A stretch of DNA of 64,000 bases from an uncultured virus (IMG/VR IMGVR_UViG_3300031088_000469) (lineage: Duplodnaviria; Heunggongvirae; Uroviricota; Caudoviricetes), in IMG/VR virus record IMGVR_UViG_3300031088_000469; one strand, 5' to 3'. Made by a program: the position numbers and the translations under genes. Within the stretch, counting starts at the first letter, position 1. Every line of letters begins with the position of its first letter. This document shows positions 17,147 to 38,509 of the stretch, one piece after another. The notes beneath the pieces were generated by a model, which had not been told where the DNA came from, did not search any database, and was given only the letters and a program-made list of their open reading frames with translations.

Positions 17147-18346
17147 TTAGCCCTTGACGCAGAGCACTGTTCTGAGGTGCTGGACAACCTCAACGAGGTC
17201 AGACTGCGACTCCATGACGTGCTTCAAGTCCTTGTATGCTGCTGGAATTTCGTCCACAACACCCTGGTCCTTGCGTGACTCTACACCCTGGGTCTGAGCA
17301 ATCAGATCTTCGACTGTGTACTTACGCTTTGCAGCGCTTCTGCTCATCCTTCGACCAGCACCGTGAGATGCCGACTGGAACGAGGCATCGTTTCCTAGAC
17401 CCCGAACTACGTATGAACCAGTACCCATCGAACCAGGGATTAGTGCCACATCACCCAGTCCGGCACGAATAGCACCCTTACGAGTCACTAGCATCTCTTC
17501 GCCATCGATGATCTCTTCCGCAACATAGTTGTGATGAACGTTAATCTCTTCGTCAAAAGTTACGGTCTTCTTGTCACCGTAGTGCTTGCGAAGCGCCTCT
17601 CTGAACAAAGCCATCATGATGGAACGAGAGCGTAGAGCGTACTCCTGTGCCCACATAAGGTCGTGGCGGTAAGCATCCATCTCAGGCGTACCAGAGATGA
17701 AGACTGCTAGGTCACGATCAATGAGGTCGGAGTTGTGAGATAGTGTCTGCGCGATACCAATGTGACGCTCAGCAAGAGACTTACCGACGTTGCGAGACCC
17801 AGAGTGAAGAGTCAACCAAACGACACCATCTTCATCGACACAGAGTTCAATAAAGTGGTTTCCGCCGCCGAGTGTGCCCATCTGAGAGTGAGCGCGACCT
17901 TCGACAGAAGCAGCGTCCTTGTGAAGGTTCTTGAAGTCACCCCAGAAGATGTCCCAACCCTTTTCAAGACCAAGCTGACGTACGTTGACATCCCTATCGT
18001 GACCTCGGAACCCCACTGGAATGGAGTTCTCAATCGATGCCCTCAACTGAGGAAGGCGCTCTAGATCCTCTTCGCGCAAGCTGGTTCGAACAGCAACCAC
18101 TCCGCAACCAATGTCTACACCAACAGCGTTAGGAGATACAGCCTGCTTCATAGCGATTACCGAACCAACAGTAGCGCCCTTTCCTACGTGAACATCAGGC
18201 ATGACGCGAACGCCGTGAACCCAAGGCATCGATGAGATGTTGCGCAACTGCTTGAGGGCATCCTGCTCAACTTCCCACTCGTTTGCCCACATGTGTACTG
18301 GTGACTTTGTTCCCCGAAGCTCTACCGGGAATCCTAACTCGTTCAT
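17147..18346 (-). CDS. rtcB: RtcB RNA ligase
   Basis: MPDVH.G.G, VGVDIGCG, GTLGGGNHF, LHSGSR, HHNY, RKGA, SHGAGR, DEIP.AYK and C-terminal VKG. Confidence 0.97.
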   Translation of the reverse strand: MNELGFPVELRGTKSPVHMWANEWEVEQDALKQLRNISSMPWVHGVRVMPDVHVGKGATVGSVIAMKQAVSPNAVGVDIGCGVVAVRTSLREEDLERLPQLRASIENSIPVGFRGHDRDVNVRQLGLEKGWDIFWGDFKNLHKDAASVEGRAHSQMGTLGGGNHFIELCVDEDGVVWLTLHSGSRNVGKSLAERHIGIAQTLSHNSDLIDRDLAVFISGTPEMDAYRHDLMWAQEYALRSRSIMMALFREALRKHYGDKKTVTFDEEINVHHNYVAEEIIDGEEMLVTRKGAIRAGLGDVALIPGSMGTGSYVVRGLGNDASFQSASHGAGRRMSRSAAKRKYTVEDLIAQTQGVESRKDQGVVDEIPAAYKDLKHVMESQSDLVEVVQHLRTVLCVKG

Positions 18347-21771: not shown

Positions 21772-21784
21772 TCCCCTCTTTGAG

Positions 21785-25472: not shown

Positions 25473-25624
25473 TTATTCGGTCGGTGAGCGACTTTGCAGT
25501 ATCCCTAGCCGACCTATTCGTTGACGAGGCACCAATCCCCTTTGTCCTACCCAGCACGCAACGAAGTACCCGTTCTGGTAGTGAGATCCCATCGCAGCCT
25601 GCAAAAGCTGTATGGAATCGGTCG

Positions 25625-25697
25625 TGGCTCCGACCGGCATCGATCCGGTGACCTCGCGATTTTCAGTCGTGCGCTCTACCAACTGAGCTACAGAGCC
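25625..25697 (-). tRNA. tRNA-Phe(GAA)
   Basis: Cloverleaf. Confidence 0.9.
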
Positions 25698-25842
25698 ATT
25701 TGGTGATAGGTCAGTGCAGTACATGCCTATCACTCGCCAGTCGCTTCGTTTCTGCAAGTTCCACGACTGGGTATTGCATTCTCCGCACACCGGAGAAAAC
25801 TAAAGGTATGAAACCCAGTGTTACTACCGACCTAAGCCGGAG

Positions 25843-25927
25843 TGCCCGTACCGAGACTTGAACTCGGATGGTCCGTAAGGACCGCTAGCACCTGAAGCTA
25901 GTGCGTCTGCCATTCCGCCATACGGGC
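25843..25927 (-). tRNA. tRNA-Leu(CAG)
   Basis: Cloverleaf with long variable arm. Confidence 0.9.
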
Positions 25928-25942
25928 ATGTGTTCAACCTAT

Positions 25943-26512: not shown

Positions 26513-26542
26513 TTGGCGATACTATCGCATCTGCTGAGTTAA

Positions 26543-26783
26543 TTCAATCAACCCGTAAGCCGAGTTCTGTTTTAGACTGTCATCTGTCTGAGCCGCCTAC
26601 CCGTCTTTCAAAGGGCGGCAATTCCCTCAGACTGTTTGGCGTTGCTTACATCCTGCACCCTACTTCTTAAGCTAGGCTTAGTGGTTCTTGAGCGACAAAC
26701 CAAAAGTTTGTCTACCACACGGTAATTGCCGAAAAGCTCGGACTTTCCTAAGGCTTGCGCCCTCGACAGTCCAGTTGATTGAA
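26543..26783 (-). ncRNA. rnpB: RNase P RNA, compact (about 240 nt)
   Basis: CR-I AGGAAAGUCCGAGC and CR-V ACAGAACUCGGCUUA (P4); P1 UUCAAUCAAC/GUUGAUUGAA; P2 GACUGUC/GACAGUC; P3 with GCAA loop; P6-like CGGCAAUU/AAUUGCCG. Confidence 0.9.
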
Positions 26784-26786
26784 AAT

Positions 26787-26930
26787 TGGGTGACTGAGCC
26801 GGATTTACACCAGCGACCTCATGAGCCGTATCCTCATGAACTTTGTTACGAGCGTGGTTATCGTCTCAACCCGAGACACTCGGTATGCATCCCAAGTGTT
26901 TGTCTTTTCGCCCTACAAGCTACCAGTCAC
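26787..26930 (-). ncRNA. tRNA-like RNA with greatly expanded D arm, ends in CCA
   Basis: GUGACUG/CAGUCAC acceptor; T-like arm GCUGG-UGUAAAU-CCGGC; 6-bp anticodon-like arm with 7-nt loop GAUACGG. Confidence 0.55.
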
Positions 26931-26931
26931 G

Positions 26932-27004
<73 letters not shown>

Positions 27005-27213
27005 TTATGCAGGATTTCCCGGTTACTACCCCGGTTTACCTGCGACTGGTGCCAGACCAGTCAACCGCTCTTGCGATGGTCCTGCAAGAGAAGGCGCGCA
27101 CTAGGGTATCCCGTAAGCGACACGGGGCAATTTCTGGTATTACTACCCTCCCGTTTGGCTGGGAGACAGCCTTTCTGCTAGTAAGGCAGAAACATTCTCT
27201 CGTTTCCGAGAAG

Positions 27214-27286
27214 TGCGCCTGGAGGGACTCGAACCCCCAACCTTTTCGTCCGTAGCGAAATGCTCTATCCGTTGAGCTACAGGCGC
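27214..27286 (-). tRNA. tRNA-Arg(ACG)
   Basis: Cloverleaf. Confidence 0.9.
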
Positions 27287-27485
27287 ATTGTGTGGGATTA
27301 TGACTCTTACCAAGGAGTCGGACACCCACGACGCTCTTCACGCAAGAACGCTAAACGGGACACGCGGTCACCTCGTAGTCCATAAGGGACGGTGTTAAAG
27401 CTAACCGACAACTAGGTTACTACGGAGAACCCTACCCTTGCACTTGGTGTGTGCGATTCATCTCACTAGCAGTACTACTAATGGA

Positions 27486-27561
<76 letters not shown>

Positions 27562-27761
27562 ATGTTGACGACTTAGAGGGCAGCTAATCATTTCTACTCC
27601 CATATCGTCTGATGAGGTTAACGCTCGGTACTCATCCATCTTGCGGCACCCTTGCAACCAAGGACCGCTAGATACCGCCGGTTTCCCTTTCGGGACGAAC
27701 ATGCTCCCCCGCGCTGGTCAAGTGATTAGTTTGCCAGTTATGCAGTTTGTCATGTTCCGAG

Positions 27762-27835
27762 TGGTCGTAGGTGGACTTGAACCACCGACCCCTTCGTTAT
27801 CAGCGAAGTGCTCTAACCAACTGAGCTATACAACC
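27762..27835 (-). tRNA. tRNA-Ile(GAU)
   Basis: Cloverleaf. Confidence 0.9.
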
Positions 27836-27956
27836 ATTGCCGCTTTCACGGCGTTTCCTCTATGTAGTTACCAAAGTGGTTCCTTGTTGATATCTCTACC
27901 TTAGCAACATGTTTGTGTTGTTGTCAAGTCCAAACGAGAAAAAGTTTGGAAGTGGA

Positions 27957-28042
27957 AACGGAGGCGGGATTTGAACCACTTATGCGCGTATGAAAGCCTC
28001 TAGGTTATGAGCCTAGCAAGATACCGAACTTCTTTACTCCGT
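27957..28042 (-). tRNA. tRNA-Met(CAU)-like with insertion at the variable/T-stem junction
   Basis: Anticodon arm identical to 28681-28754; extra nucleotides interrupt the 5' strand of the T stem. Confidence 0.55.
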
Positions 28043-28045
28043 AAG

Positions 28046-28120
28046 TGACGCATACGGGACTTGAACCCGTAACCTTCGCCGTGAAAGGGCGATGCAACTA
28101 ACCAATTGTGCTAATGCGCC
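28046..28120 (-). tRNA. tRNA-Glu(UUC)
   Basis: Cloverleaf. Confidence 0.9.
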
Positions 28121-28226
28121 AGAACTCTCAATACGAGAGCCTTTGCGGACTGGATACCGCGACCACGATGCAATCATCTGCCATTTCTCTTTGTCTCCAC
28201 CGGATTCCAGGAGAGACATTGAGCAG

Positions 28227-28300
28227 TAGGGATATGCGGACTTGAACCGCAGACCTCTTCGTTATCAGCGAAGCGCTCTAACCAACTGAGCTACACCCCT
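28227..28300 (-). tRNA. tRNA-Ile(GAU)
   Basis: Cloverleaf. Confidence 0.9.
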
Positions 28301-28399
28301 AAGTGGTTGCTCCGAAAAATCTCGACACAACCGGTATTGGCGAGAGATCTCTTCGTCACTTACGGTAATGAGCCGATAGTGATGATTGAAGAGGAAGCG

Positions 28400-28472
28400 T
28401 GGAGTCTAGGAGAATCGAACTCCTGACATCCTGCTTGCAAAGCAGGCGCTCTACCAACTGAGCTAAGACCCC
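28400..28472 (-). tRNA. tRNA-Ala(UGC)
   Basis: Cloverleaf, G3-U70. Confidence 0.9.
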
Positions 28473-28680
28473 GAACAAAACCGGCATTTGAGAAGTGCGT
28501 ATCTAAACTCGGGCTTCTCGCGGTAATCTCTTACCAATTCACCTGACCTCTCGCTTTCACGCTAGGTCCAACTCGCTTGCCGGTGTCGGAACAAACCTTG
28601 CGGTTCATGCCTAGCATCTTCTAGTTACAAGCAGAAGATGCTATCTATAAATCCCAGGTCTAAGACCCTTCGTTGTAACG

Positions 28681-28754
28681 TTGCGGGGGATGGATTTGAA
28701 CCACCGACTTCTAGGTTATGAGCCTAGCGGGCTACCGAACTGCCCTACCCCGCA
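28681..28754 (-). tRNA. tRNA-Met(CAU), initiator-like acceptor
   Basis: Acceptor UGCGGGG/CCCCGCA-A; lacks the three G-C anticodon pairs. Confidence 0.85.
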
Positions 28755-28815
28755 TCACTGTTCCTCGATACTAGCACAGAGGCTATGCTCTGCACAATGG
28801 TTCGTGGAAGATAAA

Positions 28816-28915
28816 TGGTCTCGCTGCGAGGATCGATCCCCGCACTGCCTTGGACGACAGCCAATGCCCGGGCGACTGGTAAGGGGATATCACTCCCTAC
28901 CGCACTGACTGCGAC
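28816..28915 (-). ncRNA. atypical tRNA-like RNA ending in CCA, with a GUC loop
   Basis: T-like arm with GAUCGAU loop; UUGG-CUGUCGU-CCAA arm; long hairpin in place of the D arm. Confidence 0.4.
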
Positions 28916-28942
28916 TGTACAATCTACGTCAGTAACCATAAG

Positions 28943-29016
28943 CACCCCGTACCGGATTCGAACCGGCATCTTTACACATATGTGCAAACGACATTCTCCG
29001 TTAGTCGCAACAGGGC
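28943..29016 (-). ncRNA. tRNA-like RNA with self-complementary 6-nt anticodon loop (CAUAUG)
   Basis: Acceptor, D and T arms intact; no 7-nt anticodon loop. Confidence 0.6.
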
Positions 29017-29095
29017 ACCTTCCGAGTCACTTTCATCTAGAAATCGGGCGACTCTTCAGTTGAGACGGCTAAGAGCCAGTGGCTCTCACCGTTTG

Positions 29096-29168
<73 letters not shown>

Positions 29169-29286
29169 ATGTGCTGCGCGAAGACTATCTGAGTAAGCTT
29201 CCTCATACGACAACCGCAGCTTGCGCCCCGCACGGAACAATCATCCCGCCGAACTTGAATCGAGACCTTGCAAAGCCTCTCAACCG

Positions 29287-29363
29287 TACCCCCAGATGGA
29301 CTTGAACCACCGCCTCCCGCCACACACGGACGAGCGCTCTGTTCTCTACTGAGCTACAAGGGT
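29287..29363 (-). ncRNA. tRNA-like RNA with distorted anticodon arm
   Basis: Acceptor ACCCUUG/UGGGGGU; T and D arms intact; loop GUGUGU. Confidence 0.55.
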
Positions 29364-29480
29364 ATAACTGGATACTAACCCGACCCAGCACAGGCATCAA
29401 ATTGTTCTACATGAGGTTTGATGAACTCGCGTCTTGTTCGTAACCCCGTCAAGCTTTAGGGGCATTGTTGCAACATTGCG

Positions 29481-29554
29481 TGCCAACTACCGGAGCCGAA
29501 CCGGTGACCTACTGCTTTTCAAACAGTCGCTCTGTCCAACTGAGCTAAGATGGC
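29481..29554 (-). tRNA. tRNA-Phe(GAA)
   Basis: Cloverleaf. Confidence 0.85.
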
Positions 29555-29682
29555 AAGTGGGTTGATTACGCCTCAGTAGTTCAACCCTGGTGCAAAAGAC
29601 CTCCTGAGGAAGGCTACGTAGTGTCTTTCGCTAGTTATCTAACCCTCCAATGGTTCCGGAGTGCGGAGTCTTTGGGTTATCG

Positions 29683-29756
29683 TGACGCTGACGGGACTTG
29701 AACCCGCAACCTTCTGGCTGAGAACCAGATGCAACTGCCAATTGTGCTACAGCGCC
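29683..29756 (-). tRNA. tRNA-Glu(CUC)
   Basis: Cloverleaf. Confidence 0.9.
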
Positions 29757-29965
29757 ATAACAACTTTTCGCATCAGGACGATTAGCCCCTGCATCTCACC
29801 AGAACTAACTAGTGCGGATTTCTTTATCCCATGCGATGTTGTGTTCCTAGTGTGGTCTATCAACCGGCTCCCTACACCGGAATCTCCCGCCCTCGGCGGT
29901 TGGGTTGGACTTTCCCTATTGACATGTGTTTTTCAGGAGACACTAGTACGTCCTGCACATTTACT

Positions 29966-29995
29966 ACCTTACAGTAGTAGCTTCTCTCTTGTCAA
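29966..29995 (-). promoter_or_regulatory. SigA-like internal promoter
   Basis: TTGACA-18-TAAGGT. Confidence 0.6.
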
Positions 29996-30021
29996 GTCGA
30001 AACAAGAAGTTTTTTGAAACG

Positions 30022-30096
30022 TAGCGCAGACGGGACTCGAACCCGCAACCTTCGCCGTGAAAGGGCGATGCAACTAGCCGATTGTGCTACTGCGCC
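30022..30096 (-). tRNA. tRNA-Glu(UUC)
   Basis: Cloverleaf. Confidence 0.9.
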
Positions 30097-30337
30097 AAAC
30101 ACTAAGCTGAGTATGACCAACTTAGGATGCCGATGGATACATCATCATGCGCAGCGGTCAGGTATTCACCCGACATTCCTACACAAAGCGTTCCACCTCA
30201 ATATCAGCAACCTCCGGCAAGAGGTTTCATACTGCTGTCCTAGGGGTATACGGGCTAATACCTAGGAACCCAAAATGACCTTACCGGGTCATCCCGTTAG
30301 ATGATGAGTGTAGTCAAGACCTTCCTCATCATCTTTG

Positions 30338-30411
30338 TCGCTCAGGGCAGACTCGAACTGCCGCATAACACCGTTATGAGCGGTGCGCCTTACCATCTTG
30401 GCTACTGAGCG
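30338..30411 (-). tRNA. tRNA-CAU (Met)
   Basis: Cloverleaf. Confidence 0.85.
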
Positions 30412-30561
30412 TCAGAAGTCCATCGTACTGTCATCACGACGTTCGATGGACCTGATTGGTGATGCATGATAAGCGTGCAATAGCAATCACCGGGCAACAT
30501 CATTACAGCAACGGCACTCATTGCAACTACCATTGCACCGGTAGTCCTGTAAATCAGTGCG

Positions 30562-30643
30562 TGCCCGATGAGAGACTTGAACTCTCACGTCCGAAGACAC
30601 AGGAACCTAAATCCTGCGTGTCTGCCAATTTCACCAATCGGGC
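30562..30643 (-). tRNA. tRNA-Leu(UAG)
   Basis: Cloverleaf with variable arm. Confidence 0.9.
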
Positions 30644-30647
30644 ATTC

Positions 30648-30973
30648 TGGTGGTCCCTAGCCGGACTTGAACCGGCACCTCCGCCATCCTAATCGCATAC
30701 GCTGGGCGGCGCTCTACCTAAACCCACCTTTACAAGCCTTCCAGTGCGTTACTGACCTCCGATAATCACCTTTGCTAGTTCTCGTCTTACTCACGCAAGC
30801 AGTGTCCCCACAGCCTGTCAGGGGTTTCGCCCGACTCCTTTTTATAGCTTATGCGATTGTTACCGTAAGCTCTTACTTGCGCTTTCTTCCGAGTTTCACA
30901 TCGGCTTTCTCTTTGGTGTTCACACACCTTGTTTCTTGCTCCAACACCAAGGGTTCATTGAGCTATAGAGAAA
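30648..30973 (-). ncRNA. about 325-nt tRNA-scaffold RNA with a roughly 240-nt D-loop insertion
   Basis: 5' UCUCUA-UAGCUCAA ... GGUAGAGC; CCGCC/GGCGG arm with 19-nt loop; perfect T arm; 3' UAGGGACCACCA. Confidence 0.65.
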
Positions 30974-31032
30974 ATCTAGGTCCAAGTGTCATCTTATGCT
31001 TCCTGGTAATCAGGGCTGCTTGAACTCTATTG

Positions 31033-31123
31033 CGGAGAGGGTGGGATTTGAACCCACGGTAGGATGTGACACCTACGGCAGCTTTCGAAACTGCTGCACT
31101 AAGCCGGACTATGCGACCCCTCC
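31033..31123 (-). tRNA. tRNA-Ser(CGA)
   Basis: Cloverleaf with long variable arm. Confidence 0.9.
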
Positions 31124-31296
31124 AAAACTCATGTGAAGCTATCGATGGGCAGTTCCTTTCGGAATACATCACCTGCCGTCAACGTCTGCCGACGTATGAG
31201 ACGACTCGATACCACTTCACACCATCCACAACAGCGATACCATGCTGTTCGACGACTTTCTAATCCCTTTTTGGTATCTGAATCAGAACATAATTC

Positions 31297-31371
31297 GGGT
31301 GGACGACGGGGCTTGAACCCGCGACATCCGGCTCCACAAGCCAGCGCTCTACCAACTGAGCTACGCCCACC
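31297..31371 (-). tRNA. tRNA-His(GUG)
   Basis: Cloverleaf with G-1. Confidence 0.9.
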
Positions 31372-31411
31372 ATATCATTGCAACAAGCCAGTCACGCCGG
31401 TTGCGAACCGA

Positions 31412-31531
31412 CGACGCTTGGGGATTCGAACCCCGCATACAATGATGTGCTGCAAGTTTTCGGCTTTTCGTAACCGCAATGGGGTTGCGCCCCATCAGCC
31501 CCTCTACATAGGCTGTGAACTTACGAGCGTT
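31412..31531 (-). ncRNA. tRNA-like RNA: acceptor plus T arm carrying a multibranch domain
   Basis: ACGCU/AGCGU acceptor; GGGGUUCGAAUCCCC T arm; GUAAGUU/AACUUGC stem enclosing three hairpins. Confidence 0.55.
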
Positions 31532-31804
31532 CTTTTTTACATCTGAACGGGCATCGATTGCATTCATTTGCCTCGGTGCTTGAAGTGATGGTGTATTCGC
31601 ACAAGGGTTCACATAACCCCTCCCTCAGATTTGCCGTCTGCGACGATAGGCTCCTAGGACCGATCCGGTGTACAAGTGTGGAAGAACGCCTCTAATCGCA
31701 TCTCTACGTTCTCAGTAAGACTCACCCATGCGATGCGATTTCTCTACATACCTTGCGGCGTACATGGAAGCCTTGCCTTACTGCAAGTACCCGAAGGTAC
31801 TTTG

Positions 31805-31877
<73 letters not shown>

Positions 31878-32074
31878 GTATGTCGAAAGAGTGATCAAAC
31901 CCTTCCGACCCGAAACAGCCGAAGCCATTCCGTAGATTTCCTAACGGGATCAACCGAAGCATCTTCTTGACGTAAGACACCTAGAATCGCAACGACTTAA
32001 ATTCAGTTCAATGTCGTCATAGAACAGCCATTCACCCAGGCTTACCGGGACTTTCGTTTGGAAGACGAGAAGTG

Positions 32075-32165
32075 CGGAATCGGAGAGATTTGAACTCTCG
32101 GAACCCTTTGAGGGGTTCGCCACCTTTCCAAGATGGTGCACTCGGCCAGACTATGCGACGATTCC
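32075..32165 (-). tRNA. tRNA-Ser(GGA)
   Basis: Cloverleaf with long variable arm. Confidence 0.9.
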
Positions 32166-32361
32166 ATAAAGCCTTTTCAGTAAAGACCGCGAGCTATTGC
32201 AACACGGCACCCCAACTGAGTCATCCAAGGCAATTGCTCCTTTCAGTGGTATCACCGCCGATGTACTTTCTGACGGTTAGCCAGAAGTTGCATCAACGGT
32301 GCTGAATTGAGCGAGGACTAAAATGTTCTCCCATACCAAGGGTTACTTAGATTAGCCTTTG

Positions 32362-32450
32362 CGGAGTCGGAGAGATTTGAACTCTCGGTACCCTTTCGGG
32401 TACTCCACCTTAGCAGGGTGGTGCACTAAGCCAGACTATGCGACGACTCC
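32362..32450 (-). tRNA. tRNA-Ser(GCU)
   Basis: Cloverleaf with long variable arm. Confidence 0.9.
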
Positions 32451-32522
32451 ATTTTGCTCAACCAACTTCGTTGAGCTTGTTTCCTCTTTTGTGTTTTCAA
32501 GATTCGTTGTTGCTATAAACCA

Positions 32523-32552
32523 ACCTTAGCAGGCTGGTTTTCCTTTTGTCAA
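32523..32552 (-). promoter_or_regulatory. SigA-like internal promoter
   Basis: TTGACA-18-TAAGGT. Confidence 0.6.
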
Positions 32553-32596
32553 GTCGAAACCGAAGTTTCTTTGACATTTCCTACGACTGTAGGTTG

Positions 32597-32669
32597 TGGA
32601 CGTTAGGAGATTTGAACTCCTGACCCCTGCCTTGCAAAAGCAGTGCTCTACCAACTGAGCTAAACCCCC
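32597..32669 (-). tRNA. tRNA-Ala(UGC), one acceptor mismatch
   Basis: Cloverleaf, G3-U70. Confidence 0.8.
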
Positions 32670-32685
32670 AAGGGCACAAACAGAT

Positions 32686-32841
32686 TTTACGTGACGGGAC
32701 TTGAACCCGCAAGGAGACTCAGTGTGATATCCATTTCTAGATACCCGCCTACTCCGGTGGATGTCGCCCAATGCTTTACAGCCCACCGGCTGTAAAGTTT
32801 AGGTGCTAATCCACTGCGTTTGCCAATTTCGCCACACGCTA
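32686..32841 (-). ncRNA. tRNA-Leu-like RNA with an 87-nt structured anticodon loop
   Basis: Leu-type D arm GCG-AAAUUGGCAAA-CGC; CAGUG/CACUG stem enclosing 32725-32811; perfect T arm. Confidence 0.7.
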
Positions 32842-32889
32842 CTGACTGTTTGTGAAAGGGAACGAGCATGTCTGCCCTATTTACCTTTG

Positions 32890-32976
32890 CGGAGCGGGTG
32901 GGATTCGAACCCACGGTGGTTTTACCCACGGCAGTTTTCAAGACTGCTGCACTAAGCCGGACTATGCGACCACTCC
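32890..32976 (-). tRNA. tRNA-Ser(UGA)
   Basis: Cloverleaf with variable arm. Confidence 0.9.
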
Positions 32977-33415
32977 ATGTTGCTGGTAACTTTCTTCGGT
33001 TCGGTCAGTTCCTTTCGGAATACATCAACCTTGCCGCTTACTTGTCTATAGTCTGACAGAACCCAGCGATTTTGTCAACCCAATCTTATCGCGGCTGATT
33101 GGGAGTACCGCATTACCTCACGACGGGATGCCTTCGCGTCTAAGTAACTCTCCTACCCTATGGCATCAGGATATTGGAGCCAGAACTAATAAGTCTAGTC
33201 GGGGCTGCTCACGTTCAGCAACCCCTCGGGGCTTTCACCCTATCCCGGTCATACCCTCCCGGTCTGGACTAAGGACTCTCACCTAAATATGTGCTCCTAC
33301 GTAGTCTGTTACCATGCAGACGACCCATGAATTGTGGATCGTGCCGGTATCGAACCGGAACTTCTCGTAAGTGGTAGTGAACAGCAAGGTATTGCTCCTT
33401 GTCAATGCAGCTTCA

Positions 33416-33907
33416 TTATGCTGCGCTGTCCTTTTCGAATTGACTTTCATATCTGGCAACGATTGATTTAGCCCATATATACAGGTCAAAAGCACGAACC
33501 CCCGAAGGCTGCGGTTTTGTCCATAGCTCTAAGTTTTCAATCCTGTTGTCATCCCTCACACCATTTTTGTGGTGTACATTCTCTCCCGGTAATAGATACC
33601 TATTAAGATGATCCTCCATAACCAGAATGTGTTCGAAAACGTATTTCCTTTGAGTGTGAGCGAGCCTTGGGTGTGTTGGCATCATGACCATAATGTAGCC
33701 CTTTTGATGCTTTGTTTTCCCACCTTTACGAAGTGGATACGCCATACAATCGACGCAAGCTTCAGATTGGCGATTGATAACAACTCCGCACGAACACGTC
33801 TTGTTATCTTTAGCCTTGCCAGCACTTGCTCGGCATTTCATACAAGTTGCATGCCTATCGTTTGGCATGCGCGCAAACTCTTTTGTACAGACTTTGCATA
33901 TTCTCAT
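33416..33907 (-). CDS. HNH homing endonuclease (HNH_3-like)
   Basis: GYIMV..P.HP...YVFEH.LVME..L.R.L...ENVHHKNG.RDDNR.ENLELW; AT-richer than its flanks. Confidence 0.9.
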   Translation of the reverse strand: MRICKVCTKEFARMPNDRHATCMKCRASAGKAKDNKTCSCGVVINRQSEACVDCMAYPLRKGGKTKHQKGYIMVMMPTHPRLAHTQRKYVFEHILVMEDHLNRYLLPGENVHHKNGVRDDNRIENLELWTKPQPSGVRAFDLYIWAKSIVARYESQFEKDSAA

Positions 33908-33961
33908 TTTGAGATACTAGCATCTCCAACAAACATCGAGCAAAGGTTGATCGATATCTCT

Positions 33962-34350
33962 TGGAGATGGCGGGAGTCGAACCCGCGTGTTGCTTGATAA
34001 GTCGAAATCTTCTACGTGCGTAGTCCATTTGGGGCGTTTATCGACTCTGGCGGGTTGGTATGGACACCGGCTCGCTATCGTCTAACTACCATGATTACGA
34101 TACTTGCTACCCAGTAGTTAGGCGGCGTATCGGATTCCTCTTTGCTGATGCCTAGTTCCTGCCGTGAATCATTCTGCAATTGGAAGCTGAGACAGACTCC
34201 TTAGAGACCCTCAGCGATTAAGCTGCGAGTGCGAAGTCGTTGCGAGATGCGTTTGCATTTCTTTTTGCCCGATGTGATTTACGTGGTCACCAGACAATCC
34301 ACGGCACGCTTCCTTTCGCCTGTATCAACCAGTCGAAACCAAGCATCCCC
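33962..34350 (-). ncRNA. ssrA: tmRNA, tag peptide ANASRNDFALAA
   Basis: 5' GGGGAUGCUUGGUUUCGAC; 3' GCGGGUUCGACUCCCGCCAUCUCCA; tag frame 34256-34218 ending FALAA-stop. Confidence 0.95.
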
Positions 34351-34530
34351 TTTGGTGGACCTCTTCACGGAAAGCCCTGAGACCAGCCAGCCCGAAGGCT
34401 CTTTGGACACCGCCTCTTTCGAGGAAAGAATATGTGAAGATGGGGATGATTCGATTACACGGGTTCATCCTGACCTTGATACATCAACACCCGGGTCATC
34501 TTCCTGACCGTTCTACTAGATGCTAATTCG

Positions 34531-34700
34531 ATTCCTTGGTGGGGCTTGAACCCACATTCTTGACTACCCGCTGAAGCAGGTCTGTTTTACCAATCTACGA
34601 ATTAAACTACAGCTACCACCAGGGTCGCTGGGAGGATTCGAACCTCCATCTCTTAAGACCTACATATCGTAGGCGCGCACCGCCAATGTGCTTCAAGGAA
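34531..34700 (-). ncRNA. twin tRNA: a circularly permuted tRNA nested in the anticodon position of an outer tRNA
   Basis: Two D arms and two T arms; outer acceptor UUCCUUG/CAAGGAA; inner loop-closed acceptor CAGCGACC/GGUAGCUG. Confidence 0.7.
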
Positions 34701-34722
34701 AAATTGCGGCGAAAACGCCTTG

Positions 34723-34795
34723 CTCCCCCACGTGGACTCGAACCACGAACCGTTCGGTTAACAGCCGAATGCTCTGCCAATTGAGCTACAGAGGA
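34723..34795 (-). tRNA. tRNA-Asn(GUU)
   Basis: Cloverleaf. Confidence 0.9.
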
Positions 34796-34853
34796 ATATG
34801 TCTGCGTAGCAATACCGACTCTACGGTACGATGCGCGTTACCACACCGTGAAG

Positions 34854-34926
34854 CTCCCCCAACTGGACTCGAACCAATGACCTAGAAGTTAACAGCTTCC
34901 CGCTCTACCAACTGAGCTATGGAGGA
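34854..34926 (-). tRNA. tRNA-Asn(GUU)
   Basis: Cloverleaf. Confidence 0.9.
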
Positions 34927-35089
34927 ATAGAGAGTATCTAGATTTTGAAGTTCATCAGGGTCTTCTCTCAGTTACCCACTAGTAGTGAACAAACATTCGC
35001 TTTCACGCATCACCTCGGGTGACGAACCCGAGGTGAATTACGCACTCAAACTCAACACGCCAGTCAGACGCACTAAGCAGTTTGTTACG

Positions 35090-35163
35090 TCGGGGTGACA
35101 GGATTCGAACCTGCGACCTTCCGCCCCCAAAACGGACGCGCTACCAAGCTGCGCTACACCCCG
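35090..35163 (-). tRNA. tRNA-Pro(UGG)
   Basis: Cloverleaf. Confidence 0.9.
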
Positions 35164-35213
35164 TGGTGTTTGTGTCTTGCTGTGTTATTGCAAAAGGGTT
35201 TGGGAACCCTTCG

Positions 35214-35285
35214 TCGGAATAGGGTGGATCGAACACCCGACTTTCAAGCCCCTAACTTGACCGCATACCGCTTGCGTATATTCCG
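35214..35285 (-). tRNA. tRNA-Pro(AGG)
   Basis: Pro-type acceptor CGGAAUA/UAUUCCG-A; stem UCAAG/CUUGA; loop UUAGGGG. Confidence 0.85.
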
Positions 35286-35301
35286 AAAATCTTCATTACT
35301 G

Positions 35302-35375
35302 TGCGCCTGGCGGGACTCGAACCCGCACTGTACTGATTTTAAGTCGGCTGCCTCCTGCCATTGGGCTACAAGCGC
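35302..35375 (-). tRNA. tRNA-Leu(UAA), short variable loop
   Basis: Cloverleaf, loop CUUAAAA. Confidence 0.85.
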
Positions 35376-35419
35376 AGGTAGGCTTCTGGCTATGCTGGTT
35401 ATTCTCAGCCTACAACCCG

Positions 35420-35501
35420 TACCCCTAATCGGACTTGAACCGATACTCCGTGAGGAAGCGCATTTTGAGTGCACCGCGTCTGCCAATTCCGCCATAGGGG
35501 C
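35420..35501 (-). tRNA. tRNA-Leu(CAA)
   Basis: Cloverleaf with variable arm. Confidence 0.9.
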
Positions 35502-35532
35502 ATGTACTTTTGCTCTGTTGTCTTGTTCCACA

Positions 35533-35562
35533 ACTGTACACCACCGAATCCGATGTTGTCAA
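35533..35562 (-). promoter_or_regulatory. SigA-like internal promoter
   Basis: TTGACA-18-TACAGT with TG extension. Confidence 0.6.
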
Positions 35563-35639
35563 GCTAAGATTGCGGGGTCATCCACCCCATACGGTGATGA
35601 GCCGTATGGTTGAGTCATCATCTCAATGAAGTATTCCCC

Positions 35640-35726
35640 TGGTGCGCGCGGAGGGACTTGAACCCTCACGTCCTTACGAACACTAACCCCTCAAGCTAGC
35701 GCGTCTGCCAATTCCGCCACGTGCGC
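35640..35726 (-). tRNA. tRNA-Leu(GAG), CCA encoded
   Basis: Cloverleaf with variable arm. Confidence 0.9.
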
Positions 35727-35833
35727 ATATCGTATATTTGAGTCGATACCTCGACTTGCACTATCCAGCTAACCTGACCGCACTACTACTGTTGTACTTC
35801 TTTAAACGCCCTCGGTGCGGAGAGTCTGTTTTG

Positions 35834-35905
<72 letters not shown>

Positions 35906-36003
35906 GCATCCAGAATGCTAACAGATGGAGCGGCGCGAAATTGTATAGTCACCGTTCTGGAATGCTCGGCGGTTGCATGACCTAAGTCACACCTCGCCTT
36001 GTG

Positions 36004-36075
36004 CTCCCCCACCAGGATTCAAACCTAGACCTAACAGCTCCAAAGGCTGTCGTGCTGTCGTTACACTATGGGGGA
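36004..36075 (-). tRNA. tRNA-Gln(UUG)
   Basis: Cloverleaf. Confidence 0.85.
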
Positions 36076-36124
36076 TCATGCCCTTACGAGCAATCTGCGC
36101 ACACTAAGATCCGTGTGCAAGTAC

Positions 36125-36210
36125 ATGATAAGCGAGCAGGAATCGAACCTACCTATCCTGACGTGCGCCAGACGGTGCCATTACCTTACCAGCGACCTAT
36201 CTCTTATCAT
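36125..36210 (-). ncRNA. tRNA-like RNA with extended (about 11-bp) acceptor stem and non-canonical anticodon arm
   Basis: AUGAUAAGAGA/UCGCUUAUCAU stem; GUAGG-UUCGAUU-CCUGC T arm. Confidence 0.5.
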
Positions 36211-36214
36211 TACG

Positions 36215-36286
36215 CTCCCCGACCAGGACTCGAACCTAGAATAACTGGACCAGAACCAGTCGTGTTGCCAATTACACCATCGGGGA
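36215..36286 (-). tRNA. tRNA-Gln(CUG)
   Basis: Cloverleaf. Confidence 0.9.
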
Positions 36287-36403
36287 ATACATGCATTTAG
36301 GGCTGCTTGTTCACCACGATGCAAAGGAAATTCCCTTAGGCTTGACGGCGGTTCGTCACTCTGTAAGAGGCATGTCGTAGGAGCCTCACCCTTGTGTTAT
36401 GCG

Positions 36404-36477
36404 CTCCCCACCTAGGACTCGAACCTAGAACCCTTTGGTCCAGAACCAAATGCAACTGCCAATTGTGCTAGCGGGGA
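36404..36477 (-). tRNA. tRNA-Gln(CUG)
   Basis: Cloverleaf. Confidence 0.85.
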
Positions 36478-36636
36478 AGGTGGTTATTGAGTCTCTTCAA
36501 TAACCCCTCTGGGACTGACACCAGAGAATTGGGTCGTGATACAAGGTCTAATCCTTGCTAGGGCGTATACAACTCCATGACACCTCGCGGCTTATCAGCG
36601 GGTTCATATCACAACAATGAGGTAGCAAGCTACCAG

Positions 36637-36711
36637 CGTCTATGACGGGACTCGAACCCGCGACTTCCACCGTGACAGGGTGGCACTCTAAACCGACTGA
36701 GCTACACAGAC
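36637..36711 (-). tRNA. tRNA-Asp(GUC)
   Basis: Cloverleaf. Confidence 0.9.
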
Positions 36712-36717
36712 ATGTTT

Positions 36718-36790
36718 TGACGAAGGCGAGACTCGAACTCCCATGCACGAGTTTTCAGACTCGCTGGCTGACCAATTAGCCCACTTCATC
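36718..36790 (-). tRNA. tRNA with 8-nt anticodon loop UCUGAAAA (Phe GAA-like)
   Basis: GAUGAAG/CUUCGUC acceptor; GGCU/AGCC D stem; GCGAG/CUCGU stem. Confidence 0.7.
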
Positions 36791-36965
36791 GGGTGAGGAT
36801 TTCTCCCTCCCTTTTGCATCGAGTAGAACCACACCACGGTCCTATACGCGCTCTCACGCCGCATTCTGGTTTATGCTAACTCGAAACCATGACATCCTGC
36901 ACTGCTAGTTTCTGATTGGGGTACCTCCGCACAGTCTTGTTCAGCACATTCCGCTTTAGGTTTTG

Positions 36966-37035
36966 TGAGATTTGCTGATTTGAACAGCGTCTCCCACCTT
37001 CTCGGCGGGCGCTCTAACCATTGAGCTATTATCTC
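36966..37035 (-). ncRNA. tRNA-like RNA with non-canonical anticodon loop
   Basis: D and T arms intact; 6-bp stem with GAGAA loop; acceptor only 5 bp. Confidence 0.5.
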
Positions 37036-37140
37036 TGTTCCTTTTTGTGATGTGAACAGCTTCTAACCGCTCCTGTGAGAAGCGGCACCACGAAACCTAA
37101 CCATCATTTCATCCTGAGCCTCACAGACCCAGGACTACTG

Positions 37141-37213
37141 CTCCCCCACGTGGACTCGAACCACGAACCATCTCATTAACAGTGAGACGCTCTGCCAATT
37201 GAGCTACAGAGGA
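37141..37213 (-). tRNA. tRNA-Asn(GUU)
   Basis: Cloverleaf. Confidence 0.9.
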
Positions 37214-37311
37214 ATATCCTTTGGTATACGGAAGGAAAGTCCGTGTTCAAGCCTCACTACTGCCTTCGACGAGAGGTCTCGCAGGGATGATGAACATTAT
37301 CGGCTATACCG

Positions 37312-37385
37312 CGACTCTAACGGGACTTGAACCCGCGACTTCCACCTTGACAGGGTGGCACTCTAACCAACTGAGCTATAGAGCC
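37312..37385 (-). tRNA. tRNA-Asp(GUC)
   Basis: Cloverleaf. Confidence 0.9.
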
Positions 37386-37514
37386 AAACGTTGTCAAGCC
37401 TTTGTGACCGCTCTGCGATCACTAGTACACCGTGCCACGGCGCTTGACTGTTACCCCTTATGCTTTGGACACTTACCTTGTACTTCGGTTCGTGCTACCC
37501 GCCACAATGGCATG

Positions 37515-37587
37515 TGCTTCCCGAGAATTTCGAAATCTCGACCCTCCGGTTAAGAGCCGGATGCTCTATCCTCTGAGCTAGAGAAGC
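37515..37587 (-). tRNA. tRNA-Lys(CUU)
   Basis: Cloverleaf. Confidence 0.9.
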
Positions 37588-37926
37588 GTATGGTTGACGG
37601 TGTGGAATTCTCACCCACGAAGCTTCGTTCCTGAATCTACACGCTACTAGGAGTACGACTTCCTTTCACCCTTTCCTCAGTACTATGAAGCGCCGGTTTT
37701 ACCAACCGGTGTATTTGTTTACGTCTTTACATAACCGTCTTTCCCATTACTGGGAGGGATCGACCGTGTTAACCCGGTATGTGATTCCCTTTATCCATTG
37801 CTGGACATTTATGTGCGCGATACGAAGTCTGGGGCTGGCTATCATTATCCCCTTATCACTTCCGCCTTTTCGAGCCAGTACGGAACTTTGTATCGCTGTC
37901 CCCAACTACGCGCGTAGTTGAGTCTG

Positions 37927-38009
37927 TGGCAAGTGAGGGATTCGAACCCCCGAAGTCTATTGACGGCTGATTTACAGTCAGATCCCTTTGGCCGCTTGGG
38001 TAACTTGCC
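37927..38009 (-). tRNA. tRNA-Tyr(GUA)
   Basis: Cloverleaf with variable arm. Confidence 0.9.
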
Positions 38010-38103
38010 ATGCACGCAAACAGGGAGCGACCCTATCCACTTCGAACATTACGCTAGTGTTCGCTACGTCTAGTTTCTCTCGCCGGAGTGACTAGCAAAG
38101 AGG

Positions 38104-38185
38104 TGGTAGCTGAGGGATTCGAACCCCCGCAGGCTTAGCCGTCGCGTTTACAGCGCGGTGTCGTTGACCACTTGACTAAACTACC
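38104..38185 (-). tRNA. tRNA-Tyr(GUA)
   Basis: Cloverleaf with variable arm. Confidence 0.9.
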
Positions 38186-38436
38186 ATTACTGATGAGAAC
38201 GACAACCAAGTCCTTCATTTTGAGCCATTGGCTATATGACGGCATATTGGCTGCCGCCCTCATCAAACCTTGTCGTGCCTCCCTCGCTCCGAAGAGCTTG
38301 TGATTATACGATAAGGAGTGGAATAGGTTTTGGCGACCTATTCCCTTTCTTTATCCACTGTGTAGTTGCCAAGATGGGTAAGTTTCTACCCACATAACCT
38401 TCCTAGCATCTTCGTTTCCTCCGCTAGGGGGTTTTG

Positions 38437-38509
38437 CAGGGATGACAGGACTTGAACCTGCAACACCCGGTTTTGGAGACCGGTGCTCTACCAATTGAGC
38501 TACATCCCT
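38437..38509 (-). tRNA. tRNA-Trp(CCA)
   Basis: Cloverleaf. Confidence 0.9.

What the first reader, a model, noticed from the sequence alone, without database searches (positions are those of the whole stretch)
34531..34700. Twin tRNA: a circularly permuted tRNA nested in another tRNA's anticodon position
Minus-strand order: UUCCUUG, D arm A (GCAC/GUGC), GCCUACG-AUAU-GUAGGUCU, T arm A (GGAGG-UUCGAAU-CCUCC), CAGCGACC-CUGGU-GGUAGCUG, UA, D arm B (GUUU/AAAC), AGACCUGC-UUCA-GCGGGUAGUC, T arm B (GUGGG-UUCAAGC-CCCAC), CAAGGAA. The first 5' strand pairs only with the last 3' strand. The inner acceptor is closed by a 5-nt loop, and GUAGGUCU pairs over 8 bp with AGACCUGC. This gives two tRNA elbows joined through their anticodon stems, with no anticodon loop. 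The inner T-arm/closed-acceptor/D-arm order is the topology known for bacterial YrlA Y RNAs, which associate with Ro60 and RtcB loci.
Basis: partly seen in the sequence, partly recalled or inferred. Interest (0 to 1): 0.82.

Follow-up and report, generated by a model that had tools for sequence, protein, structure and literature searches.

The report
Twin tRNA-like RNA in phage array
A large uncultured phage encodes, between a tRNA gene and its tmRNA gene, a 170-base RNA built from two tRNA look-alikes that have exchanged their acceptor strands and have no anticodon, so it is most likely a tRNA mimic and not a decoder.

Summary
Each T stem abuts an acceptor 3' strand, and each D stem lies 2 nt after an acceptor 5' strand. 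The first 7 nt pair 7/7 with the last 7. The middle strands form a closed 8-bp stem (7/8).

The window is a phage contig with 67 tRNA genes, a tmRNA, RtcB and a miniature RNase P-like RNA. I found one homologue, in a related 203-kb phage at the same position. Four base pairs changed on both sides and stayed paired (P about 2e-4). Each half's own acceptor pairing is poor and gets worse in the relative. Ordinary tandem tRNAs score 28 bits or less against a model on which the two members score 204-212 bits.

The "joined through anticodon stems" pairing exists in sequence (8/8 and 7/8). Energy and one compensatory pair favour two local hairpins instead.

It is not a YrlA member: 20 bits against a cut-off of 69, no Ro60-binding motif, and no TROVE gene in the 96%-complete relative.

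Best reading: a non-decoding, strand-swapped twin tRNA mimic matured like a tRNA. Its function as a decoy or tether is inferred. The evidence base is narrow: two sequences and no proof of a stable transcript.

The parts
34694..34700 (-). Outer acceptor, 5' strand (UUCCUUG)
   Evidence: Pairs 7/7 Watson-Crick with 34532-34538 in the window and in L001. Pair probability 0.95. Similarity to the relative begins 2 nt upstream, at 34702.
34677..34691 (-). D arm A (GCAC-AUUGGCG-GUGC), 2 nt after the outer acceptor 5' strand
   Evidence: 4/4 pairs in both phages. The loop GG is invariant. The loop varies at 2 positions.
34658..34674 (-). Hairpin a (GCCUAC-GAUAU-GUAGGU), in the place of an anticodon arm, with a 5-nt loop
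   Evidence: 6/6 pairs in both phages. The loop is 5 nt in the window and 3 nt in L001. Pair probability 0.96.
34648..34657 (-). Linker A (CUUAAGAGAU)
   Evidence: Identical in both phages. Shares AAGA(G)AU with linker B (read from the sequence).
34631..34647 (-). T arm A (GGAGG-UUCGAAU-CCUCC), abutting the inner acceptor with no linker
   Evidence: 5/5 pairs. The loop matches the canonical T loop (as I recall it). Invariant between the phages.
34610..34630 (-). Inner acceptor closed by a 5-nt loop (CAGCGACC-CUGGU-GGUAGCUG)
   Evidence: 7/8 pairs in both phages. Two pairs changed on both sides: A-U to G-C, and G.A to C-G. A low-depth contig from an RNA-library run lacks 3 nt here.
34584..34607 (-). 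D arm B (GUUU, 16-nt loop, AAAC), 2 nt (UA) after the inner acceptor
   Evidence: 4/4 pairs. U-A changed to C-G in L001, a compensatory change. The loop is invariant and ends GGUA.
34566..34581 (-). Hairpin b (ACCUGC-UUCA-GCGGGU), the second anticodon-less arm
   Evidence: 6/6 pairs in the window and 5/6 in L001. U.G changed to G-C, a compensatory change.
34556..34565 (-). Linker B (AGUCAAGAAU)
   Evidence: 7 of 10 positions identical in L001.
34539..34555 (-). T arm B (GUGGG-UUCAAGC-CCCAC), abutting the outer acceptor 3' strand
   Evidence: 5/5 pairs. Only loop positions 6-7 differ in L001.
34531..34538 (-). Outer acceptor 3' strand (CAAGGAA) plus U at the discriminator position; the next base (34530) is C
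   Evidence: By my eye count of the output, 65 of the array's 67 tRNA genes also have C after the discriminator.
34351..34530 (-). Conserved structured spacer between the twin RNA and the tmRNA (context; not shown to belong to the RNA)
   Evidence: One continuous 749-nt alignment with L001 at 87% runs through twin, spacer and tmRNA. Three pairs of the predicted spacer fold are compensatory.
33962..34350 (-). Phage tmRNA gene (context)
   Evidence: ARAGORN and Rfam, 118.1 bits. Contigs from RNA-library runs cover 33962-34345 at depth 63-126 in three runs.
34722..34795 (-). tRNA-Asn(GTT), the upstream neighbour (context)
17147..18346 (-). RtcB RNA ligase gene at the distal end of the array (context)
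   Evidence: Pfam PF01139, E 1.9e-119.
26540..26782 (-). Miniature RNase P RNA-like gene inside the array (context; a possible processing enzyme)
   Evidence: RF00010, 79.2 bits, below its cut-off of 100. The orthologue at L145:46-288 scores 84.9 bits and keeps the catalytic-core strands.

Best explanation
This is a real, structured, non-decoding RNA gene. It is a pseudo-dimer of two tRNA-like units that have swapped acceptor strands.

**Architecture**
- Outer unit: outer acceptor, T arm B and D arm A.
- Inner unit: closed inner acceptor, T arm A and D arm B.
- Each unit has the tRNA 'top half': a 7-bp acceptor stacked directly on a 5-bp T stem, and a D arm 2 nt after the acceptor 5' strand.
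- Each unit carries a short capped hairpin where the anticodon arm would be.
- The architecture and the helices with compensatory changes are shown.

**Maturation (inferred)**
- It is transcribed with the tRNA array.
- The same enzymes that mature the neighbouring tRNAs cut it out at the outer acceptor: RNase P at the 5' end, trimming, and CCA completion at the 3' end.

**Function (inferred)**
- It acts as a tRNA mimic. It presents two elbow-plus-acceptor surfaces to proteins or ribozymes that read tRNA shape and not the anticodon.
- In that role it works either as a decoy or sponge, or as a tether, during infection.
- No partner is identified.
For: **Anatomy.** All arms are present with tRNA spacing. 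The MFE fold recovers them.

**Strand exchange.**
- Cross pairing is 7/7 and 7/8 in both phages.
- Own pairing is 5/7 and 3/7 in the window, falling to 4/7 and 2/7 in the relative.
- In 0 of 66 neighbouring tRNA pairs does cross pairing exceed own pairing. The 7 pairs with high cross pairing are isoacceptor neighbours with perfect own stems.

**Homologue.** L001:14907-15073 sits at the same place, between tRNA-Asn and the tmRNA.

**Substitution pattern.**
- 25 of 170 alignment columns differ.
- 4 pairs changed on both sides and are canonical in the relative (columns 75/87, 76/86, 97/114, 123/132).
- Random placement of the changes gives 4 or more such pairs in 0.024% of 100,000 trials.
- Five helices (54 nt) are unchanged.
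- The remaining changes fall in the D loop, T-loop positions 6-7, the hairpin loops and linker B.

**Divergence.** The element differs at 12.9% of positions, against 10.9% for tRNA/tmRNA genes and 20.0% for alignable spacers. Upstream of 34702 the two phages do not align.

**Specificity.** Model R1 scores 211.6 and 204.3 bits on the two members. It scores 28.3 bits or less on everything else in the window, L001 and Zooman.

**3' flanks.** Both acceptor 3' strands are followed by N-C. So are 65 of the 67 tRNA genes (eye count).

**Transcription unit.** No promoter-like or terminator-like site on the minus strand in 33900-35000.

**Precedent.** M. smegmatis YrlA, with a 7-bp closed acceptor, is cut by RNase P and receives CCA in vivo (PMC4201824, passages read).
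Against: - There are only two full sequences, from closely related phages (RtcB 92% identical). Spacers in the array are themselves alignable at about 80%, so conservation alone proves little.
- The outer acceptor, both T stems, D stem A and hairpin a show no variation, and therefore no covariation.
- The fold-energy z-score is only -1.71.
- No stable transcript is shown. Contigs from RNA-library runs touch the element only in part, at depth 3-6, and joined to the upstream tRNA gene. DNA carry-over cannot be excluded.
- No binding partner is known, so the decoy or tether role rests on analogy.
- No further member was found in any collection searched. Loss of such an RNA would therefore be common, or the RNA is young.
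Confidence: 0.55

Rival explanations
1. Two-piece, double-headed tRNA mimic. RNase P, from the host or the phage's own miniature version, also cuts in the loop of the inner acceptor, and the 3' side is trimmed and given CCA. The mature form is then two RNAs of about 78 and 87 nt, held together by two intermolecular acceptor stems, each with a free CCA end.
For: - The inner stem is 7-8 bp stacked on a 5-bp T stem, the 12-bp unit that RNase P measures (established knowledge).
- M. smegmatis YrlA, with a 7-bp closed acceptor, is cut by RNase P in vitro and receives CCA in vivo (PMC4201824, passages).
- The inner 3' strand is followed by C-C in both phages, matching the N-C rule of 65 of 67 array tRNAs (eye count).
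- The loop is the variable part: CUGGU against CUCGU, and 3 nt shorter in one low-depth contig.
- A miniature RNase P-like RNA is encoded in the same array.
Against: - No read ends or RNA contigs show a cut. The one contig that reaches this region runs through the loop, 34596-34791.
- Salmonella and Deinococcus Y RNAs are not cut at the analogous site (PMC4201824).
- Both phages have one mismatch in the stem.
Confidence: 0.17
2. Cis-acting processing or stability module of the tmRNA transcription unit. The tRNA-shaped block recruits RNase P and 3' nucleases to free the downstream structured leader and tmRNA, in the manner of tRNA punctuation. The released twin is then a by-product.
For: - Twin, 180-nt spacer and tmRNA form one uninterrupted conserved block (749 nt at 87%) in the same order in both phages, while the sequence upstream is not alignable.
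- The spacer has 3 compensatory pairs.
- There is no promoter-like or terminator-like site between them on the minus strand.
- tmRNA contigs are abundant in three RNA-library runs. Contigs also cover part of the spacer (34350-34506) and tmRNA plus spacer (33962-34480) at low depth.
Against: - The tmRNA 5' end is itself an RNase P site, so no extra module is needed (established knowledge).
- A single tRNA (tRNA-Asn lies just upstream) would serve as punctuation.
- This reading does not explain the strand exchange, the two D arms, or the covariation in the inner unit.
Confidence: 0.12
3. A divergent Y RNA of the YrlA kind. It would bind a host-encoded Ro60/Rsr protein, with the outer tRNA-like half replacing the usual Ro60-binding stem.
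For: - The inner module has the YrlA order of T arm, closed acceptor and D arm. RF02553 aligns over its whole length at 34558-34675 (20.3 bits) and at L001:14931-15040 (23.7 bits).
- RtcB is in the array.
- Microbacterium phage Zooman has a tRNA array, RtcB (57% identical to the window's), a Ro-like gene, and Y-RNA-like units with the motif.
Against: - The scores are far below the cut-off of 69, and are no better than a tandem-tRNA junction (22.8 bits at L001:20198-20261). The authors name such junctions as a false-positive source (PMC4201824).
- There is no GNCGAAN0-1G motif in 450 nt (window) or 509 nt (L001) around the element, while the Zooman gap has 5.
- There is no TROVE match among the 45 window ORFs scanned, and none in the 96%-complete relative at E up to 1.
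Confidence: 0.08
4. Two decayed tandem tRNA pseudogenes whose acceptor strands happen to be complementary. On this reading the region has no function of its own.
For: - The element lies in a 67-gene tRNA array, where duplication and decay are expected. Other odd tRNA-like calls exist, such as 36718-36790 with a 2-nt anticodon.
- The first half's own acceptor could pair 5/7 in the window.
- Spacers in this array are alignable at about 80%, so 87% identity is not far above background.
Against: - Four compensatory pairs, P about 2e-4.
- Own pairing worsens in the relative while cross pairing is kept.
- Both anticodon loops are replaced by capped hairpins in both phages.
- 54 stem nucleotides are unchanged against a 20% spacer divergence.
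- Neither half resembles any array tRNA beyond the T loops.
Confidence: 0.07

Closest known systems
YrlA, the tRNA-like bacterial and phage Y RNA (Rfam RF02553; Chen et al. 2014, PMC4201824)
   Same: A circularly permuted tRNA-like module (T arm, closed acceptor-like stem, D arm) with no anticodon. It is found in actinobacteriophages next to tRNA arrays and RtcB. A 7-bp closed acceptor can be an RNase P substrate.
   Different: - Here the module is framed by a second tRNA-like half (D arm, T arm, open 7-bp acceptor), not by a Ro60-binding stem.
- There is no GNCGAAN0-1G motif and no TROVE gene in the phage.
- The score is 20.3 bits against a cut-off of 69.
Tandem (dimeric) tRNA precursors
   Same: Two units of D arm, hairpin and T arm in a row, on the tRNA strand of an array. 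Such junctions give the same weak YrlA scores.
   Different: - In real tandem tRNAs each acceptor pairs within its own unit: 60 of 67 at 7/7, the rest at 5-6 of 7.
- Here own pairing is 2-5 of 7 and cross pairing is 7/7 and 7/8.
- There are no 7-nt anticodon loops.
tmRNA tRNA-like domain, including permuted two-piece tmRNAs
   Same: A non-decoding RNA with an acceptor plus T-arm minihelix matured by RNase P. The element lies directly beside the phage tmRNA gene.
   Different: - There is no mRNA-like reading frame and no pseudoknots.
- D arms are present.
- Only an 11.2-bit local match to a tmRNA model.
Orphan permuted or anticodon-less tRNA mimics in other phage arrays
   Same: Phage tRNA arrays that carry YrlA-like or anticodon-less tRNA mimics without a Ro60 gene, in some cases beside RtcB.
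   Different: None of those notes describes two complete units with reciprocally exchanged acceptor strands. No sequence likeness to them was found.
Stable RNAs C and D (species 1 and 2) of the phage T4 tRNA cluster (recalled from memory, no call)
   Same: Small stable RNAs of unknown function, encoded among phage tRNA genes and matured by tRNA-processing enzymes.
   Different: Not compared here. I know of no twin architecture in them.

Membership tests
YrlA (RF02553) | tRNA-like module in the order T arm, closed acceptor-like stem, D arm | tested here: met
   34647-34584 has this order with 0-nt and 2-nt junctions. RF02553 aligns model positions 1-114.
YrlA (RF02553) | Score at or above Rfam's gathering cut-off (69 bits) | tested here: not met
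   20.3 bits in the window and 23.7 bits in L001. A tandem-tRNA junction scores 22.8 bits.
YrlA (RF02553) | GNCGAAN0-1G motif near the 5' end (the presumed Ro60 contact; PMC4201824) | tested here: not met
   0 matches in 450 nt (window) and 509 nt (L001) on the RNA strand. 5 matches in the Zooman Y-RNA gap, used as a positive control.
YrlA (RF02553) | Encoded within about 4 kb of a Ro60/TROVE gene on the same strand | tested here: not met
   No TROVE among the 45 window ORFs scanned. No PF05731 match at E up to 1 in the 96%-complete relative. The rest of the window's own contig could not be searched, because it is not held.
YrlA (RF02553) | Bound by Ro60/Rsr | not testable with these tools
   Needs immunoprecipitation. 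The host is unknown.
tRNA (RF00005) | Cloverleaf with its own 7-bp acceptor and a 7-nt anticodon loop | tested here: not met
   ARAGORN makes no call. No RF00005 match is listed at E up to 10 in 34351-34721. Own acceptor pairing is 5/7 and 3/7. The loops are 5 and 4 nt.
skipping-rope RNA (RF02924) | Score at or above the cut-off (36.7 bits) | tested here: not met
   23.6 bits over the first half only, 34623-34701, with non-canonical pairs in the outer stem.
tmRNA clan (CL00001) | tRNA-like domain plus a tag reading frame and pseudoknots | tested here: not met
   Only an 11.2-bit local match to beta_tmRNA at 34608-34647. The true tmRNA lies next door at 33962-34350.

The most novel reading that the evidence does not exclude
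The RNA is a self-contained 'double-headed tRNA'. After RNase P opens the inner loop it becomes two strands held together only by two reciprocal acceptor stems, each ending in CCA. One particle would then present two acceptor ends and two elbows. It could occupy two tRNA sites at once, for example both active sites of a dimeric tRNA-directed defence nuclease, a synthetase, or the phage's own miniature RNase P. It might even be charged.
Probability: 0.15. Interest if true: 0.85.

Novelty: new variant of a known kind. Interest (0 to 1): 0.6.

Why it matters
Phage tRNA arrays are usually read as codon supply, or as spare parts against tRNA-cutting defences. An RNA that keeps two complete tRNA top halves, discards both anticodons and exchanges its acceptor strands is built to be recognised as tRNA without decoding. 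It would add a new shape to the small set of natural tRNA mimics (tmRNA, Y RNAs, viral tRNA-like ends).

It also sits in a phage that encodes a tmRNA, RtcB and a miniature RNase P-like RNA. That makes a compact system for asking what phages do with tRNA-shaped RNAs.

Two things limit its weight. The distribution is narrow (two related uncultured phages of plant litter), and there is no transcript evidence.

Tried and rejected
**Searches for more members, all without a new one**
- Distant blastn of 34351-34721 against 50,697 phage records: no match.
- Exact 41-mer in IMG/VR: 0 loci.
- D-loop B 16-mer in IMG/VR: 55 loci, of which only the relative's contig is real.
- Relaxed T-arm A pattern:
  - IMG/VR: 1 locus, the relative.
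  - Metagenome contigs: 39 loci, of which only L087, the window's own contig at 100% identity, matches the element.
  - Species genomes: 20 loci, none real.
- Relaxed T-arm B/outer-acceptor pattern in IMG/VR: 6 loci, only the relative scores.
- Model R1 over whole records:
  - Zooman, two unrelated jumbo contigs and the next RtcB relative: only tandem-tRNA-level hits, or none.
  - 49 of the first 50 of the 80 RtcB-encoding viral records: one 22.7-bit hit at noise level. L151 was not held. The last 28 loci (L199-L226) were not searched, and L147 and L155 are records already searched.
- A tmRNA-motif scan of IMG/VR returned 19 loci, mostly at contig ends, and did not return the relative itself. 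I did not follow it up.

**Other checks that led nowhere**
- Neither half resembles a particular tRNA of the array beyond the T loops, so I could not name a parent tRNA.
- The first acceptor-pairing count used the wrong 3' offset and is void. replace it.
- The energy z-score does not distinguish the element.

**Expression**
- Four metatranscriptome runs were laid as contigs.
- No contig covers 34507-34595.
- The element is reached only by X17 (34681-34837, depth 5.7) and X18 (34596-34791, depth 2.95).
- Absence of cover proves nothing, and these pieces may be precursor or DNA.

**Literature.** Searches found no description of a strand-swapped twin tRNA-like RNA. This covers only the held library. 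From PMC4201824 I read passages only, and its supplementary tables of phage YrlA RNAs were not opened. PMC7790460 was seen only in a search listing.

Full report
**What the window is.** The 64-kb window is phage-like. ARAGORN finds 67 tRNA genes and one tmRNA gene, all on the minus strand between 19042 and 38509. Rfam confirms them. Flanking ORFs include RtcB (17147-18346), dUTPase, ThyX, RNase H, a UvrD-type helicase, several HNH nucleases and an endonuclease VII. No whole genome is held for the window. A metagenome contig of 231.5 kb (L087) is 100% identical over the element and is presumably the source. The nearest cultured RtcB genes are in Microbacterium phages, at about 57% identity. Near-identical DNA occurs in leaf-litter, straw, phyllosphere and plant metagenomes: 14 runs hold at least half of the sampled words.

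**The observation.** The order is: outer 5' strand, AA, D arm A, hairpin a, a 10-nt linker, T arm A, an 8-bp stem closed by CUGGU, UA, D arm B, hairpin b, a 10-nt linker, T arm B, outer 3' strand, U. The spacing is that of tRNA. Both T stems abut an acceptor 3' strand with no linker. Both D stems follow an acceptor 5' strand by 2 nt. Both T loops begin UUC-purine-A. Both D loops carry GG. The minimum-free-energy fold recovers the outer acceptor, D arm A, both short hairpins, both T arms and the closed stem. Its energy is not unusual, with a z-score of -1.71. No ORF of 80 aa or more overlaps the element. ARAGORN and Rfam call nothing here at their thresholds.

**Is the strand exchange real?**
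- Cross pairing is 7/7 for the outer stem and 7/8 for the inner stem.
- The first half's own acceptor would pair 5/7, and the second half's 3/7.
- Among the array's 67 tRNAs, own pairing is 7/7 in 60, 6/7 in 5 and 5/7 in 2.
- Among 66 neighbouring pairs, none has cross pairing better than own pairing. The seven pairs with high cross pairing are isoacceptor neighbours with perfect own stems.

**A homologue.** A protein encoded 4.4 kb upstream led to one related viral contig: 202.7 kb, 96% complete, with RtcB 92% identical. Its array is colinear with the window's. It carries the element at L001:14907-15073, again between tRNA-Asn and the tmRNA.
- Of 170 alignment columns, 25 differ.
- Four base pairs changed on both sides and are canonical in the relative. 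Two are in the inner acceptor, one in D stem B and one in hairpin b.
- Random placement of the same number of changes reaches four such pairs in 0.024% of 100,000 trials.
- The other differences lie in D loop A, T-loop B positions 6-7, the two hairpin loops, the inner loop and linker B.
- The outer acceptor, D stem A, hairpin a and both T stems are unchanged.
- Own-acceptor pairing falls to 4/7 and 2/7 in the relative, while cross pairing stays at 7/7 and 7/8.
- The element diverges by 12.9%. tRNA and tmRNA genes diverge by 10.9%, and alignable spacers by 20.0%.
- Similarity between the phages starts 2 nt before the element.

The caveat is plain. There are only two sequences from close relatives, and the outer acceptor has no covariation.

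The companion pairing is weaker, at 5/6 and 4/6.
- The local-hairpin structure is more stable in both phages: -52.6 against -48.9 kcal/mol, and -49.7 against -45.7 kcal/mol.
- The ensemble gives the cross pairs about zero probability.
- The double change at columns 123/132 fits hairpin b.

By connectivity, each acceptor/T stack must team with the D arm attached to its own 5' strand. Two elbows (D arm A with T arm B, and D arm B with T arm A) are therefore expected in either model. This is inference from tRNA geometry. Whether the two units are joined end to end by cross pairing, or lie side by side linked by the two 10-nt strands, is open.

**Distribution.** Every further search came back empty: blastn against cultured phages, four DNA patterns in IMG/VR, one pattern each in metagenome contigs and species genomes, and the covariance model over 53 further whole viral records and Zooman. 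The model separates the two members (204-212 bits) from tandem tRNAs (28.3 bits or less). There is one copy per phage.

**Comparison with YrlA.** The inner module has the YrlA order, and RF02553 aligns to it. The scores are 20.3 and 23.7 bits against a cut-off of 69. A plain tRNA-tRNA junction in the relative scores 22.8 bits, and the YrlA authors name such junctions as a false-positive source (PMC4201824, passages). The motif GNCGAAN0-1G, which that paper places near the 5' end of YrlA RNAs, is absent around both copies. It occurs five times in the Y-RNA cluster of Microbacterium phage Zooman, which has a Ro-like gene. No TROVE domain is found among the 45 window ORFs scanned, or anywhere in the 96%-complete relative. 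So the element works like the tRNA-like part of a Y RNA, but it is not a member of that family. Its 'handle' is a second tRNA-like half, not a Ro60-binding stem. Earlier notes of this scan describe orphan permuted tRNA mimics in other phage arrays. They are unchecked leads, and none describes this twin form.

**How it most likely works.**
- *Shown:* the architecture, its position on the tRNA strand with no promoter-like or terminator-like site around it, and selection on several helices.
- *Inferred:* the outer acceptor/T-arm stack is an RNase P and 3'-end-maturation substrate like its neighbours. Both acceptor 3' strands are followed by N-C, as are 65 of the 67 tRNA genes. Only 6 genes encode a full CCA (the 65 is my eye count). 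The 3' ends are therefore probably completed by a CCA-adding enzyme.
- *Inferred:* the closed inner acceptor may also be opened, as happens to M. smegmatis YrlA (PMC4201824).
- *Inferred:* with no anticodon, the RNA can only act through its tRNA shape. I favour a decoy or tether for shape-reading partners. I cannot name the partner.
- *Rivals:* a two-piece double-headed form, a processing module for the adjacent tmRNA unit, a host-Ro60 Y RNA, and decayed pseudogenes.

**Expression.** Contigs from three metatranscriptome runs cover the tmRNA from 33962 to 34343-34345 at depth 63-126. A fourth run covers tmRNA plus spacer at low depth. The element is touched only by two low-depth contigs that also include the upstream tRNA gene. 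One of them is a variant with a 3-nt deletion in the inner loop region and a base change in the linker after D arm A. This neither shows nor excludes a stable product.

**Verdict.** The element is best described as a new architectural variant of the tRNA-mimic kind. The evidence base is thin, and the function is untested.

Noticed in passing
window 26540-26782 (-); L145:46-288 (+); L117:17713-17933 (+): A miniature RNase P RNA-like gene (243 nt) sits inside the tRNA array. It scores 79.2 bits on RF00010, below the cut-off of 100. The orthologue in the relative scores 84.9 bits, keeps the GAGGAAAGUCCGGGC and ACAGAACCCGGCUUAC core strands, and lacks most of the specificity domain. Microbacterium phage Zooman has a 53-bit match. 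Earlier notes of this scan report the same kind of gene in other phages. One phrase search found no paper on it.
   Followed up: partly
window 34351-34530 (-): The 180-nt spacer between the twin RNA and the tmRNA is conserved with the relative, and 3 pairs of its predicted fold are compensatory. Contigs from RNA-library runs cover 34350-34506 and 33962-34480 at low depth. It may be a tmRNA leader or a separate small RNA.
   Followed up: partly
window 33210-33379 (-) and 33416-33907 (-): A 170-nt block downstream of the tmRNA is 89.4% identical to L001:15643-15810. In the window an HNH endonuclease ORF lies between it and the tmRNA. In the relative the block follows the tmRNA directly.
   Followed up: no
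window 19042-38509 (-), 3' flanks of the tRNA genes: 65 of the 67 tRNA genes have C directly after the discriminator base, but only 6 encode a full CCA (the 65 is an eye count). The two exceptions are the odd calls at 36965-37036 and 36718-36790. About half of the genes are preceded by AT.
   Followed up: partly
window 36718-36790, 27953-28043, 22642-22736 (-): Three odd tRNA-like calls: one with a 2-nt anticodon by ARAGORN, a 91-nt tRNA-Met, and an extra 35.7-bit RF00005 match that ARAGORN does not call.
   Followed up: no
window 21329-21405 (-): A weak match to bacterial small SRP RNA: 27.5 bits against a cut-off of 40, E 0.047. Probably chance.
   Followed up: no
L117:24796-25555 (Microbacterium phage Zooman, OK040793.1): An unannotated gap upstream of the endolysin and Ro-like genes holds repeated Y-RNA-like units. 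There are five GNCGAAN0-1G motifs and two YrlA-core matches of 27.2 and 30.1 bits.
   Followed up: partly
window 10209-10949 (+), 53189-53860 (+), 44931-45791 (-): The phage encodes a DruA-like protein, a GmrSD N-terminal domain protein and a sortase-domain protein. The first two are families known from defence systems.
   Followed up: no
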